This document shows positions 12,293-15,318 of a stretch of 64,000 bases of DNA, piece after piece. The notes beneath the pieces were generated by a model. That model had not been told where the DNA came from and did no database searches. It saw only the letters and a program-made list of their open reading frames with translations. The stretch's first letter is position 1. Every line of letters begins with the position of its first letter. Origin of the DNA: an uncultured Eubacteriales bacterium (GTDB taxonomy: Bacteria; Bacillota; Sulfobacillia; UBA995; UBA9673); assembly GCA_913063835.1 (NCBI GenBank), contig CAJXZV010000001.1, positions 1,366 through 65,365 on the forward strand, written 5' to 3'. The position numbers and the translations under genes are program-made.

Positions 12293-13165
12293 ATGAGCGA
12301 CAGCGAGCGCAAGAAGGTGACCCTACCGGTCCTCTACGAGAAGATGGCCCAGGGCACCCCTCTGACAATGGTCACCTGCTACGACTACCCGATGGCCTAC
12401 CTTGTGGAGCAGGCGGGCATCGACATCGTCCTGGTGGGCGACAGCCTCGGGATGACCATCCTGGGCTACGATTCGACCCTGCCGGTGACCATGGACGACA
12501 TGGTCCGGCACGCCCAAGCCGTCCGGCGCGGAACGCCCAACGCCTGGCTTGTCGGGGACATGCCCTTCATGTCCTACCAGCCCTCGGATGAGACGGCCGT
12601 CCGGAACGCCGGGCGGTTCATGGCCGAGGCGGGGTGCGACGCGATCAAGCTCGAAGGCGGGGCAGAGGTCCTCTCACGGGTCCGGGCCATCACCGCGGCC
12701 GGCATACCCGTCATGGGGCACCTCGGCCTGACCCCACAGAGCGCGGCCAGCCTCGGAGGCTTCCGCCTCCAGGGCAAGACGGCGGCCCAGGCCAAGAAGA
12801 TAGTCGACGACGCCCGGGCGCTCGAGGAGGCCGGGTGCGTGGCCATCCTCCTCGAACTCGTGCCCGACAGGGTCTGCAGGCTCGTCACGGAACGCGCCAG
12901 GATACCCATCATAAGCCTCGGGAGCGGACCTGACGCCCACGGCCAGCTCCTCATCTTCCACGACATGTTCGGCCTGTACCCCAAGTTCACCCCGAAGATG
13001 GCCAAGAAGTACGGTGACGCCGGCAAGGTCATCCAGGACGGCCTGGAGCGGTACGTGCAAGAGGTCAGGGAGGGGGTCTTCCCCGAGCCCGAGCGCTACT
13101 TCGGCATGAAGGACCAGGAGTACGAGGAGCTGGTCCGTCTACTCAAGGAGGAGGACGAACGATGA
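12293..13165 (+). CDS. panB: 3-methyl-2-oxobutanoate hydroxymethyltransferase (ketopantoate hydroxymethyltransferase)
   Basis: LVGDSLGM and GHLGLTPQS motifs; full-length similarity to PanB. Confidence 0.9.
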   Translation: MSDSERKKVTLPVLYEKMAQGTPLTMVTCYDYPMAYLVEQAGIDIVLVGDSLGMTILGYDSTLPVTMDDMVRHAQAVRRGTPNAWLVGDMPFMSYQPSDETAVRNAGRFMAEAGCDAIKLEGGAEVLSRVRAITAAGIPVMGHLGLTPQSAASLGGFRLQGKTAAQAKKIVDDARALEEAGCVAILLELVPDRVCRLVTERARIPIISLGSGPDAHGQLLIFHDMFGLYPKFTPKMAKKYGDAGKVIQDGLERYVQEVREGVFPEPERYFGMKDQEYEELVRLLKEEDER

Positions 13166-14514
13166 GTGAGCGGACACCCGCCTCCCCCCGCGGGGCAGGT
13201 CCAGGCCTCACACGCGGGGCCTCCGGCGCAGTACGCGAGAGGCTGAGGGAACTGCAGGCACGGCTGCGGATCCCCGAGGAGAGGCTCTCGGCCATCAACG
13301 GTATCCTGCTCGACCCCGACAGCCGCGTGGTAAAGGACTTCCTCGAGGTGGTGGCCAGGTACGGGACCCCTGAGGAGATCAACGCCAAGGCGGCCGAGGC
13401 CCGGAAGCTCTCGAGCCTGCTGGCCCGGCTCGAAGAACAGGGGTCGCCTTACCTCTCCGACATCAGATGGCTCATCGAGCAGAGGGACAAGGGCGCCTTT
13501 GTCACCGTCGCCGAGTACCGGCGCCGCGTTCTCGGGCCGAAGGCCGACTCGATGACCTTCAAGGACGAGTTCGCCGTCACCCTCGAGATAAGCGCGGCCC
13601 AGTATTTCCCGTGGGTCATCGCCGAGGCCGAACAGGCCATCGCCAACAAGGAACTCATGCCCGGCCGCTTCATCAGGGTGCGCAAGATGAAGGAGGCCGA
13701 GGCCGACGACGGGGACCTGGTGGCCTTCGCCGCGGCCATGCAGGTGATGGGGGCGAGCTACGTCGAGACGCTCGACACCAAGGGAACCGACGGCTCGAAC
13801 ATCCACCTCGGCGGCCCGGAGACCATAACCGGGTACTTCGGCGGGGTCGGCCAGCCGAACGACCACCCGCTGATGTGGCTCGACGAGTTCCTCTACTACT
13901 ACACCAACTACGGGATCCGTCAGGTCCTCAACATCAACCCCGGCACCGTCCTGGTAGGCTACCTCCTCCACAAGCTCGGGGTCGACATCGAGTTCAAGAT
14001 CTCGGTGTTCATGGGCAACGACAACCCCTACGCCGCCTTCTGGACGCTCATCGGGGCCAAGCTCTTCTCGCGGGACGACGGCACGACCCCGCTCATCGGG
14101 TTCAACTGGTCCAACTCGGTCAACAACGAGACCATCGAGATCACGGCCGAGTTCAGGCGGCCCCTGGGCTTCGAGGACGTGGTCAGGTTCGAGCACCACA
14201 TCGTCGAGACCTGGAAGAACATCGTCATCCAGCCCTACAACCGCCGGGACGAACTGGTCGAGCTCGCCGGCCACGTGAAGAACATCTCGGCCAAGCATGA
14301 GGGGGGCGACCCGGAGGTCGAAGAGACCCGGGAGCATCCGTCGGACATCCTCGACTACTTCCGCGACAAGGCCGAGATCCTCGAGGCGGGGGAGATGGAC
14401 CTGCTCCTGAGGAACTACCTCGACAAGCACGACGCCCTGAACAGGACGGCCCGCGCCCTCACCGAACACGGGCTCTCGTTCGTGGCCGCCCCGAAGCTGC
14501 ACCACCGGGGCTAA
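13162..14514 (+). CDS. Conserved protein of unknown function (450 aa), translationally coupled to panB
   Basis: Start ATG overlaps the panB stop (ATGA). Clean codon usage and no internal stops. I could not match it to a named family. Confidence 0.6.
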   Translation: MSERTPASPRGAGPGLTRGASGAVRERLRELQARLRIPEERLSAINGILLDPDSRVVKDFLEVVARYGTPEEINAKAAEARKLSSLLARLEEQGSPYLSDIRWLIEQRDKGAFVTVAEYRRRVLGPKADSMTFKDEFAVTLEISAAQYFPWVIAEAEQAIANKELMPGRFIRVRKMKEAEADDGDLVAFAAAMQVMGASYVETLDTKGTDGSNIHLGGPETITGYFGGVGQPNDHPLMWLDEFLYYYTNYGIRQVLNINPGTVLVGYLLHKLGVDIEFKISVFMGNDNPYAAFWTLIGAKLFSRDDGTTPLIGFNWSNSVNNETIEITAEFRRPLGFEDVVRFEHHIVETWKNIVIQPYNRRDELVELAGHVKNISAKHEGGDPEVEETREHPSDILDYFRDKAEILEAGEMDLLLRNYLDKHDALNRTARALTEHGLSFVAAPKLHHRG

Positions 14515-14565: not shown

Positions 14566-15318
14566 TCAACCGGGCCGGCGGAAGCGCACGAACTCGAAGG
14601 CACCGGAGAAGACGGGCCGGACCCCCTCGACTTCGAGACCGGCCGAGCGGAGGAGGGAGGGCACCCCCGGTTCGGTCACCGTCCAGGCGTCAGGCCCTTC
14701 CAGGGCGGTGATGGCCCAGCGGGCGACACGCATCTTCCATGCGGGTCCCCGGCCCCCGATGTCGAGGACGAGGCCGGCCCCTCCGGGCCGGAGCACGCGC
14801 CTCACCTCCTGCAGGACCGGAAGGCGCCGGTCCGGTTCCACCTCGTGAAGGCCCAGGAACAGAGTCACGAGGTCGAACCGGCCGTCCCGCAGGGGTAGGT
14901 CCGAGGCGTCGGACGCGATGAACTCGGCCCGGGGGAGACGGGCCTCCCCGTGGTCCTCCCCGTGCGCCCCGACGTTCCCCCCTCCGGGACCGCCGGAGCG
15001 GACGAGCCGGGCCAGCTTCCGCCGGGCGGCCTCGAGCATGGCCGGCGAGAGGTCGACGGCCACGACCTCCCCCCGGGGCCCCAGCCGCCGCGCCACCTCG
15101 GCGGCCACGATTCCCGTCCCACAGCAGAGGTCGAGGGCCTTCTCGTCCCCGGCCAGACCGAGCCGGTCGAGTTCGGCGGCCACGAGGCGGCGGTACCGGC
15201 CGAGGGTGATGACCCACATGAACGGGTCGTAGGCGAGGGCCGTCGCCTTCGCGTACGAGAGGCCGGTCGCCCCCGGCCCGGCCGGCCCTTCTCCGCCCGC
15301 CGTCCCACCGCCGGTCAA
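14566..15318 (-). CDS. Class I SAM-dependent methyltransferase (UbiE/COQ5-like)
   Basis: LDLCCGTG motif I and DLVTLFLGLHEV post-I region. Confidence 0.7.
   Translation of the reverse strand: MTGGGTAGGEGPAGPGATGLSYAKATALAYDPFMWVITLGRYRRLVAAELDRLGLAGDEKALDLCCGTGIVAAEVARRLGPRGEVVAVDLSPAMLEAARRKLARLVRSGGPGGGNVGAHGEDHGEARLPRAEFIASDASDLPLRDGRFDLVTLFLGLHEVEPDRRLPVLQEVRRVLRPGGAGLVLDIGGRGPAWKMRVARWAITALEGPDAWTVTEPGVPSLLRSAGLEVEGVRPVFSGAFEFVRFRRPG

What the first reader, a model, noticed from the sequence alone, without database searches (positions are those of the whole stretch)
13162..14514. Unidentified 450-aa protein translationally coupled to panB, with no other pan genes nearby
The ATG overlaps the panB stop (ATGA), so it is almost certainly co-translated with ketopantoate hydroxymethyltransferase. 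Codon usage is clean, but I cannot assign it to PanC, PanD, PanE or any named family. Conserved-looking blocks are IHLGGPETITGYFGG, LMWLDEFLYYYTNYG and NPYAAFWTLIGAKLF. No panC, panD or panE lies anywhere in the window. It is a candidate non-orthologous replacement in pantothenate metabolism or another 2-oxoisovalerate-derived pathway. Alternatively it may be an unrelated enzyme that has hijacked the panB promoter.
Basis: partly seen in the sequence, partly recalled or inferred. Interest (0 to 1): 0.6.

Follow-up and report, generated by a model that had tools for sequence, protein, structure and literature searches.

The report
Unannotated TIM-barrel enzyme partnered with PanB
The gene after panB is real and belongs to a large, well-conserved protein family that no database describes; it nearly always sits next to PanB or another enzyme that extends 2-oxoacids, so it is probably an unrecognised enzyme of pantoate (vitamin B5 precursor) and related metabolism, though its reaction is still unknown.

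Summary
A 450-aa ORF (13162-14514, +) starts with an ATG that overlaps the panB stop codon (ATGA), behind a strong Shine-Dalgarno sequence.

- **Databases:** no match in Pfam, NCBIfam, PHROGs or PDB sequences.
- **Size and spread:** more than 8000 homologous 90%-identity clusters, in at least 588 GTDB species. Most are Anaerolineae/Chloroflexota. Others are Bacillota, Caldiserica, Bipolaricaulota, Armatimonadota, Deltaproteobacteria, cyanobacterial and archaeal MAGs, a human-gut lineage and cultured Polaromonas.
- **Linkage:** panB is adjacent in 60 of 80 species loci, in several gene arrangements, and again in branches 43-50% identical. X and PanB diverge at the same rate.
- **Where panB is missing:** X sits beside other 2-oxoacid aldolase-type enzymes (DHDPS::Fae fusions, DHDPS-like, RraA-like) or beside aspartate kinase-Asd-homoserine dehydrogenase, IlvD, amino-acid dehydrogenases and TRAP or ABC transporters.
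- **Other pan genes:** no panC or panD lies near any copy.

X is most likely an enzyme acting on the 4-hydroxy-2-oxoacid made by its aldolase partner, which here is ketopantoate. The exact reaction is unresolved. A simple PanE replacement is weakened because X co-occurs with a PanE-family gene.

The parts
12293..13165 (+). panB, 3-methyl-2-oxobutanoate hydroxymethyltransferase (290 aa), first gene of the pair
   Evidence: PF02548 E=2.9e-108; TIGR00222 equivalog 307.4 bits against a cut-off of 207.55
13145..13155 (+). Shine-Dalgarno-like AAGGAGGAGGA inside the 3' end of panB, 7 nt upstream of the start of X
   Evidence: read directly from the sequence
13162..13165 (+). ATGA overlap: start codon of X (13162-13164) and stop codon of panB (13163-13165)
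13162..14514 (+). Gene X: 450-aa member of an unannotated, conserved protein family
   Evidence: ORF. More than 8000 homologs, the best 120 at 76-99% identity, none with a Pfam domain. At least 588 GTDB species. No Pfam, NCBIfam, PHROG or PDB-sequence match.
13162..13242 (+). Lineage-specific N-terminal extension (residues 1 to about 27), absent from most homologs and modelled with low confidence
   Evidence: alignment A1; pLDDT below 50 for residues 1-16
13225..13548 (+). N-terminal all-helical domain (residues 22-129, seven helices)
   Evidence: AlphaFold2 model, pLDDT 88-98 over this stretch
13561..14511 (+). (beta/alpha)8 TIM-barrel domain with C-terminal helices (residues 134-450)
13777..13860 (+). 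Nearly invariant Gly-rich loop TKGTDGSNIHLGGPETITGYFGGVGQPN (residues 206-233), probably a mobile active-site lid or phosphate- or cofactor-binding loop
   Evidence: Conservation. It is the only internal stretch with pLDDT below 50 (residues 206-230). The functional reading is inference.

Best explanation
Gene X encodes a soluble enzyme of a previously unannotated family, built from an N-terminal helical domain and a TIM barrel. It is co-transcribed and translationally coupled with PanB.

Across the family, X is the partner of enzymes that add a one-carbon or aldehyde unit to a 2-oxoacid enolate. PanB is by far the commonest partner; DHDPS::Fae fusions, a DHDPS-like aldolase and an RraA-like (HMG/CHA) aldolase are the others. 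The product of all these enzymes is a 4-hydroxy-2-oxoacid.

The most likely mechanism is that X binds this product, which in this window is ketopantoate (2-dehydropantoate). The binding would be at the C-terminal face of the barrel, using the invariant acidic, His, Lys and Arg residues (possibly with a divalent metal) and the Gly-rich lid. X then converts the product in the next step towards pantoate and CoA.

**Shown:**
- the gene is real;
- the family is large and unannotated;
- the fold is a TIM barrel;
- linkage to PanB is conserved and the two proteins co-evolve;
- alternative aldolase partners occur where PanB is absent.

**Inferred:**
- X is catalytic;
- its substrate is the aldolase product;
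- the nature of the reaction.

My ranking of the reaction:

| Reaction | Probability |
|---|---|
| Reduction of ketopantoate to pantoate (a ketopantoate-reductase analogue) | about 0.3 |
| Another transformation of the 4-hydroxy-2-oxo, 2-hydroxy or 2-amino butanoate scaffold (4-OH activation, lactone or ring handling, aldol-type chemistry) | about 0.25 |
| Other (see rival explanations) | the remainder |
For: - **Gene and coupling:**
- **Family size and lack of annotation:**
- **Fold:**
- **Linkage with panB:**
  - panB lies in 62 of 86 loci, directly upstream on the same strand in 53, and also convergent or downstream.
  - It is the only frequent neighbour.
  - The linkage persists in members only 43-50% identical.
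  - It spans almost all clades of the X tree.
  - X and PanB distances correlate (r=0.68) with a median ratio of 1.05.
- **Alternative aldolase partners where panB is absent:**
  - X-DHDPS::Fae-DHDPS::Fae-NUDIX in L020 and L027, with gaps of 7-9 bp.
  - TPP decarboxylase-ApbA-ELFV dehydrogenase-DHDPS-like-X.
  - An RraA-like aldolase convergent to X.
  - A DHDPS-family gene in the Polaromonas cluster.
- **Suppliers and users of 2-oxoacids around X:** IlvD, ELFV dehydrogenases in 13 loci plus Calothrix, aminotransferases, and AK-Asd-Hom, which makes the 4-hydroxy amino acid homoserine.
- **Many invariant polar residues, consistent with catalysis:**
Against: - There is no biochemical or genetic evidence. 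No nucleotide-, flavin- or metal-binding motif could be assigned.
- Co-occurrence with an ApbA/PanE-family reductase, and with GlcD-like, Ldh_2 and SDR oxidoreductases in Polaromonas, argues against X being simply the reductase.
- The AK-Asd-Hom and TRAP DctPQM contexts fit an aspartate/beta-alanine role at least as well.
- FolD, Fhs, the MTHFR fusion and Fae neighbours would also fit a role on the C1 carrier.
- Many associations come from single lineages.
- MAG taxonomy labels are unverified.
Confidence: 0.5

Rival explanations
1. X supplies beta-alanine, as a functional analogue of aspartate 1-decarboxylase PanD or by another route from aspartate or aspartate semialdehyde. On this reading panB-X co-expresses the two precursor branches of pantothenate.
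For: - No panD lies near any of 94 loci or in the window.
- X heads an aspartate kinase-Asd-Hom row and lies next to hom in Caldiserica.
- Dicarboxylate-type TRAP DctPQM transporters sit beside X.
- Aminotransferases and aldehyde dehydrogenases recur.
- This reading is compatible with the co-occurring ApbA/PanE reductase.
- A missing beta-alanine source is a documented pathway hole in many bacteria (PMC6593275; PMC7142369 abstract).
Against: - Alpha-decarboxylation of an amino acid needs PLP or a pyruvoyl group (established enzymology). No relation to PLP TIM-barrel decarboxylases was detected.
- It does not explain the repeated pairing with unrelated aldolase families (DHDPS::Fae, RraA-like).
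- panC, its obligatory partner, is never nearby.
Confidence: 0.15
2. X replaces pantoate-beta-alanine ligase PanC, or performs an archaeal-style activation such as phosphorylation of pantoate. That would be a non-orthologous displacement of the usual panB-panC gene pair.
For: - None of about 60 diverse panB loci next to X has panC within 10 kb, although panB-panC adjacency is common in bacteria (my own knowledge).
- The Gly-rich invariant loop and many Arg, Lys and His residues could bind a nucleotide or phosphate (inference).
Against: - No ATP-binding motif or ligase-like fold was found.
- Contexts without panB (aldolases, hom, catabolic clusters) make no sense for a pantothenate synthetase.
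- A copy sits in an archaeal MAG, and archaea use a different route (my own knowledge).
Confidence: 0.1
3. X acts upstream of, or beside, the aldolase rather than on its product. It would supply the 2-oxoacid (for example as a dehydratase) or handle the formaldehyde-level C1 donor or folate.
For: - X sits next to an IlvD-like dehydratase and an ABC importer in the gut branch, in one locus without panB.
- C1-related neighbours occur: FolD and Fhs, an Hcy-methyltransferase::MTHFR fusion and Fae domains fused to the neighbouring aldolases.
Against: - The FolD/Fhs association comes from one lineage and is divergently transcribed.
- Fold matches are not specific.
- General C1 and 2-oxoisovalerate supply already exists in any prototroph (established pathway knowledge).
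Confidence: 0.15
4. X is a non-catalytic partner of PanB, such as a scaffold, a regulatory subunit or a chaperone.
For: Translational coupling implies matched expression. The two proteins diverge at correlated rates.
Against: - X occurs without PanB in about a quarter of loci and with unrelated enzymes.
- About 40 residues are invariant, most of them polar or Gly and in or next to the barrel strands, which is typical of an active site.
Confidence: 0.05

Closest known systems
Ketopantoate reductases (PanE/ApbA; also IlvC and PanG, which serve as substitutes)
   Same: They catalyse the step directly after PanB. That step is often reported missing from genome reconstructions (PMC4072686; PanE/PanG treated as optional in PMC6593275). 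X occupies the genomic position expected for the next enzyme.
   Different: X has no sequence relation to PF02558/PF08546. Its fold is a TIM barrel, not a Rossmann fold. X and an ApbA-family gene sit in one gene row in a cyanobacterial locus.
Metal-dependent TIM-barrel enzymes that stabilise 2-oxoacid or ketose enolates (class II fructose-bisphosphate aldolases, KDO8P/DAHP synthases, isocitrate lyase/PEP-mutase superfamily including PanB, xylose-isomerase-like barrels)
   Same: Same overall fold, and the best Foldseek matches (probability up to 0.98) are to these groups. X has invariant Glu, Asp and His residues in or next to the barrel strands and a mobile Gly-rich loop.
   Different: E-values are only 5e-3 or worse and TM-scores about 0.3. 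Profile-profile comparison with PanB gives a probability of 0.1%. No Pfam model of any of these families matches.
TIM-barrel subunits of radical and B12 enzymes (ThiC, ornithine 4,5-aminomutase OraE, lysine 5,6-aminomutase KamD, glutamate mutase GlmE)
Archaeal pantoate kinase / phosphopantothenate synthetase bypass
   Same: It is a precedent for non-orthologous enzymes taking over steps between pantoate and phosphopantothenate (my own knowledge). It acts on the same 4-hydroxy acid scaffold.
   Different: There is no sequence or fold relation. No second gene accompanies X consistently.

Membership tests
PanE/ApbA ketopantoate reductase (PF02558 + PF08546; TIGR00745) | Sequence match to the N-terminal NAD(P)-binding Rossmann domain and the ApbA_C domain | tested here: not met
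   No Pfam or NCBIfam hit at E of 0.1 or better. The model is a helical domain plus a TIM barrel.
PanE/ApbA ketopantoate reductase (PF02558 + PF08546; TIGR00745) | NADPH-dependent reduction of 2-dehydropantoate | not testable with these tools
   Needs an enzyme assay or complementation of a panE ilvC mutant.
PanC pantoate-beta-alanine ligase (PF02569) | Sequence match to the Pantoate_ligase family | tested here: not met
   No Pfam hit for X. A bona fide PanC scores 357 bits in the same library.
PanD aspartate 1-decarboxylase (PF02261) | Small pyruvoyl-dependent protein matching the Asp_decarbox family | tested here: not met
   No Pfam hit for X, which is 450 aa and a TIM barrel. A control PanD scores 158 bits.
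PanB / isocitrate lyase-PEP mutase superfamily | Detectable profile-level homology to PanB | tested here: not met
   hhalign of A4 (X) against A5 (PanB): probability 0.1%, E=0.5.
DHDPS/NAL class I aldolases (PF00701) | Profile-level homology, including the GTTGE and Schiff-base lysine motifs | tested here: not met
   hhalign of A4 against A6: probability 0.4%. No Pfam hit.
TIM (beta/alpha)8 barrel fold | Eight alternating beta/alpha units, with structural superposition on known barrels | tested here: met
Class II (metal-dependent) fructose-bisphosphate aldolase family | Specific structural and sequence similarity, including the His metal ligands | tested here: inconclusive
   Foldseek E about 7e-3, probability 0.96-0.97, but TM-score about 0.32 and 10-11% identity. 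No Pfam match. Ligand geometry could not be inspected because no coordinates were available.
B12-dependent mutase large subunits (GlmE, OraE, KamD) | An adjacent or fused cobalamin-binding subunit | tested here: not met
Xylose-isomerase-like TIM barrels (AP_endonuc_2, PF01261) | Sequence match to PF01261 | tested here: not met

The most novel reading that the evidence does not exclude
X catalyses a reaction not yet described on 4-hydroxy-2-oxoacids, for example activation or rearrangement of ketopantoate. It would define an alternative route from 2-oxoisovalerate to the pantoate moiety of CoA in Chloroflexota and many other uncultured anaerobes. The same chemistry would be reused with formaldehyde-fixing DHDPS::Fae aldolases and in homoserine-related and catabolic operons.
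Probability: 0.25. Interest if true: 0.8.

Novelty: new variant of a known kind. Interest (0 to 1): 0.66.

Why it matters
Coenzyme A synthesis is universal, yet genome reconstructions often report gaps in the pantothenate branch, notably ketopantoate reductase and the source of beta-alanine.

This family is present in at least 588 species and in thousands of metagenomic sequence clusters. It is as conserved as PanB itself, it is tied to panB across phyla, and it is missing from Pfam, NCBIfam and the PDB.

Assigning its reaction would:
- close or redefine a step of vitamin B5/CoA precursor synthesis in Chloroflexota and other largely uncultured lineages;
- improve predictions of auxotrophy in metagenome-derived genomes;
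- add a new catalytic family to the TIM-barrel enzymes.

The pairing with DHDPS::Fae fusions also hints at natural formaldehyde-to-4-hydroxy-2-oxoacid chemistry, which is of interest for synthetic C1 assimilation.

A cultured carrier (Polaromonas sp. P1-6) and an abundant human-gut lineage make the question experimentally tractable.

Tried and rejected
- **Database searches, all negative:** Pfam, NCBIfam and PHROGs scans of X, and single-sequence and profile searches of PDB sequences.
- **Exhaustive phmmer against 1.84 billion representatives:** found only the family itself, essentially one 50%-identity cluster plus fragments and a few divergent members. No remote superfamily appeared.
- **Cryptic homology to PanB or DHDPS:** rejected by hhalign.
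- **Exceptional conservation:** my early impression was tempered, because X diverges at the same rate as the neighbouring PanB.
- **Promoter and terminator scan:** nothing useful in this high-GC DNA.
- **Literature:** six searches found no description of the family, of a new ketopantoate reductase matching it, or of DHDPS-Fae fusions.
- **Phage collection:** no hit.
- **Chance or shadow ORF:** rejected.
- **Unrelated gene riding on the panB promoter:** rejected on the conserved linkage.
- **Not attempted:**
  - a genome-wide phyletic profile against panC, panD and panE, because only 10 kb around each copy can be fetched.
Full report
**1. The observation**

The window contains an ORF at 13162..14514 (+) of 450 aa. 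Its ATG at 13162 overlaps the TGA of the upstream ORF 12293..13165 as ATGA. A Shine-Dalgarno-like AAGGAGGAGGA lies at 13145-13155, 7 nt before the ATG.

The upstream ORF is a genuine PanB: PF02548 E=2.9e-108, and TIGR00222 scores 307 bits against a cut-off of 207.55.

The DNA is 68.5% GC and the opposite strand carries a 469-aa shadow ORF, so I checked that the + strand ORF is the real gene.
- GC1/GC2/GC3 are 0.66/0.44/0.86.
- The protein is conserved in loci whose GC content ranges from 38% to 70%.

No alternative start codon precedes the conserved region. The first 27 or so residues are a lineage-specific extension; most homologs are about 425 aa. tblastn with PanC, PanD and PanE probes finds nothing in the 64 kb (the PanC and PanD probes were validated).

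**2. An unannotated but very large family**

X has no hit in Pfam, NCBIfam or PHROGs and no credible hit among PDB sequences, as a single sequence or as a profile.

The best 120 are 76-99% identical over 92-100% of the query, and none has a Pfam domain. Source names are "hypothetical protein" or obviously spurious labels.
- Carriers are mostly Anaerolineae and other Chloroflexota. Others are Bacillota, Bipolaricaulota, Armatimonadota, Deltaproteobacteria/Syntrophaceae, Caldiserica and Coprothermobacterota, MAGs labelled cyanobacteria and Euryarchaeota, an abundant human-gut lineage, and a cultured Polaromonas.
- An exhaustive phmmer search of 1.84 billion representatives found only the family itself: one full-length 50%-identity cluster, fragments and a few divergent members. 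There is no detectable superfamily.

**3. Structure**

AlphaFold2 on a 35-sequence alignment gave mean pLDDT 83 and pTM 0.85. The model has a helical N-terminal domain (residues 22-129) and an eight-stranded beta/alpha barrel (residues 134-450). The only poorly modelled internal stretch is the nearly invariant Gly-rich loop at residues 206-230.

- All listed Foldseek matches to the PDB are TIM barrels, with E of 5e-3 or worse and TM-score about 0.3. They include class II aldolases, MTHFR, KDO8P/DAHP synthases, isocitrate lyase, glutamate mutase and enolase-superfamily members.

So the fold is a TIM barrel, but the matches say nothing specific about chemistry. Profile-profile comparison excludes cryptic homology to PanB (probability 0.1%) and to DHDPS (0.4%).

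Across all branches, including those only about 40% identical, the invariant residues include E142, R169, R174, N213, H215, G224/G227/G228/G230, E242, N257, K279, D287 and N288. D205, E344, H346 and K378-H379-E380 are nearly invariant, and no cysteine is conserved. This pattern suggests an active site, possibly metal-dependent, and not an Fe-S or radical enzyme. That is inference.

**4. Linkage with panB**

- tblastn found panB in 62 of the 86 loci then held, directly upstream on the same strand in 53.
- Among the 80 GTDB species loci, 60 carry panB, and four of the 20 without it have too little upstream sequence to tell.
- The arrangement varies: convergent (L010, L041), downstream (L038), or separated from X by an inserted bAvd/23S-IVP gene.
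- Unbiased clustering of neighbouring ORFs shows panB as the only frequent neighbour, in 59 of 83 non-redundant loci. Pfam censuses of the nearest other neighbours agree.
- The linkage recurs in deep branches. One is a gut lineage only 43% identical, where the operon is panB, ABC transporter, X, ilvD and further genes, with PanB and IlvD both above their equivalog cut-offs. Another is a 50%-identical member with a fragmented panB directly upstream.
- On a tree of X, the linkage covers nearly every clade.
- Over 59 paired loci, X and PanB have the same mean pairwise identity (71.4% and 71.0%), a median distance ratio of 1.05 and correlated distances (r=0.68).

The pair therefore behaves as a co-inherited module. 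X is as constrained as PanB, not more. The idea of an unrelated gene riding on the panB promoter is excluded.

**5. What sits next to X when panB does not**

| Locus | Neighbours of X |
|---|---|
| L020, L027 (two Anaerolineae species) | X, then after 7-9 bp two tandem DHDPS-family aldolases each fused to a formaldehyde-activating-enzyme (Fae) domain, then a NUDIX gene. The aldolase motifs GTTGE, YNIP and KDSSG are intact (recognised from my own knowledge of the family). |
| L091 (MAG labelled Calothrix) | 2-oxoacid decarboxylase-like TPP enzyme, ApbA/PanE-family reductase (174.8 bits, cut-off 141.35), ELFV dehydrogenase, DHDPS-like protein, X |
| L064 (Syntrophaceae) | RraA-like (HMG/CHA aldolase family) gene convergent to X, 31 bp away |
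| L097, L098 | X heads the row X, aspartate kinase, Asd, homoserine dehydrogenase |
| L003-L006 (Caldiserica type) | hom divergent to X |
| L094 (gut branch) | IclR, ABC transporter, X, IlvD-like |
| L025 | DctP, DctQ, DctM, X |
| L012 | X, then an Hcy-methyltransferase::MTHFR fusion |
| L057 | ELFV-CBS dehydrogenase, X, Lrp |
| 13 Anaerolineae loci | ELFV-type dehydrogenase with CBS domains next to panB-X |
| L099 (cultured Polaromonas sp. P1-6, 564-kb replicon) | X and an SDR gene, divergent from a sigma-54 activator and a cluster of GlcD-like FAD oxidase, DHDPS-family protein, TRAP DctQMP, Ldh_2, Fe-alcohol dehydrogenase and semialdehyde dehydrogenase. Lrp and a Cys/Met PLP enzyme are nearby. 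|

No panC or panD occurs in any locus. A PanE-family gene occurs only in the Calothrix locus.

**6. Interpretation**

The common denominator is 2-oxoacid aldol chemistry. Four unrelated enzyme families next to X join a 2-oxoacid enolate to a formaldehyde-level C1 unit or an aldehyde, or cleave the product: PanB, DHDPS::Fae, DHDPS-like and RraA-like. Their shared metabolite class is the 4-hydroxy-2-oxoacids, such as ketopantoate and 4-hydroxy-2-oxobutanoate.

The other recurrent neighbours make 2-oxoacids (IlvD), interconvert 2-oxo, 2-amino and 2-hydroxy forms (ELFV dehydrogenases, aminotransferases, ApbA, GlcD-like, Ldh_2), make the 4-hydroxy amino acid homoserine (AK-Asd-Hom), or import organic or amino acids (TRAP and LIV-type ABC transporters).

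I therefore propose that X is an enzyme acting on the 4-hydroxy-2-oxoacid produced by its partner. In this window that is ketopantoate made by PanB, with translational coupling matching the expression of two consecutive steps.

The exact reaction is not determined.
- Reduction to pantoate is the simplest reading and fills a commonly reported gap (PMC4072686; PMC6593275). It is weakened by co-occurrence with ApbA and other oxidoreductases and by the lack of any cofactor motif.
- A beta-alanine-supplying role fits the aspartate-related contexts but not the aldolase pairing.
- A PanC-like role fits the striking absence of panC but not the panB-less contexts.
- An upstream or C1-carrier role, or a non-catalytic role, remains possible.

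My approximate probabilities:

| Reading | Probability |
|---|---|
| Acts on the aldolase product (about 0.3 reductase-like, about 0.25 other chemistry) | about 0.55 |
| Beta-alanine supply | 0.15 |
| Upstream or C1 role | 0.15 |
| PanC-like | 0.1 |
| Non-catalytic | 0.05 |

**7. Comparison with what is known, and novelty**

X cannot be filed under PanE, PanC, PanD, PanB/ICL, DHDPS, xylose-isomerase-like or B12-mutase families. For each, a defining sequence or partner feature was tested and not met (see the membership table). It is a TIM barrel, and only that.

I rate it a new variant of a known kind: a new TIM-barrel enzyme family attached to a known pathway node. A substantial chance remains that its chemistry is new.

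**8. Limits**

- There are no experimental data.
- Genome-wide co-occurrence with the pan genes could not be computed.
- Most carriers are MAGs whose taxonomic labels I could not verify.
- Several contextual associations come from single lineages.

Noticed in passing
L027:11282-14183 and L020:4424-7322: Two tandem genes each encode a DHDPS-family class I aldolase fused to a formaldehyde-activating-enzyme (Fae) domain, followed by a NUDIX gene. I found no description of such a fusion in the literature searched. It may be a natural pyruvate-plus-formaldehyde aldolase.
   Followed up: partly
L095:8001-9158: A 385-aa, 51%-identical copy of X lies on a 41-kb contig flagged by VirSorter, among small phage-like ORFs (clamp-loader AAA, ERCC4, Vsr, radical SAM, ThiF). 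It may be a virus-carried metabolic gene. There was no hit in the phage collection or in PHROGs.
   Followed up: partly
L054, L055, L066, L079, L083 (for example L055:9553-9942) and L034:2407-2745: A 23S-rRNA-intervening-sequence / bAvd-like four-helix-bundle gene is inserted between panB and X in one Anaerolineae lineage, widening the gap to about 550-650 bp. In L034 a copy lies just downstream of X instead.
   Followed up: no
L088:653-16412: In an abundant human-gut lineage, panB, a LIV-type ABC transporter, X, an IlvD, an MBL hydrolase, Dak1/Dak2 and IclR form one row. They sit beside two xylose-isomerase-like genes and an FGGY kinase. It looks like a catabolic island for an unknown, possibly branched, sugar acid.
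   Followed up: partly
window:7936-10147 (- strand): ORFs resembling methylthioribose-1-phosphate isomerase (MtnA) and methylthioadenosine phosphorylase (methionine salvage) lie 2-4 kb upstream of panB. I identified them from sequence motifs only and ran no family search on them.
   Followed up: no
window:15315-19473 (- strand): Probable Hsp33, PdxT, PdxS and RtcB genes follow the UbiE-like methyltransferase (14566-15318) downstream of X. These are housekeeping genes with no apparent link to X. I identified them by eye from the translations.
   Followed up: no
L087:9121-9935: On a 1.84-Mb, 73% GC contig, the panB upstream of X is split into fragments and X itself aligns in several pieces. This suggests long-read frameshift errors or pseudogenisation.
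   Followed up: no
window:13096-14505 (- strand): A 469-aa antisense shadow ORF covers almost all of X. Similar antisense ORFs recur in other loci (cluster 1 of the neighbour clustering) and could mislead automatic gene callers.
   Followed up: yes
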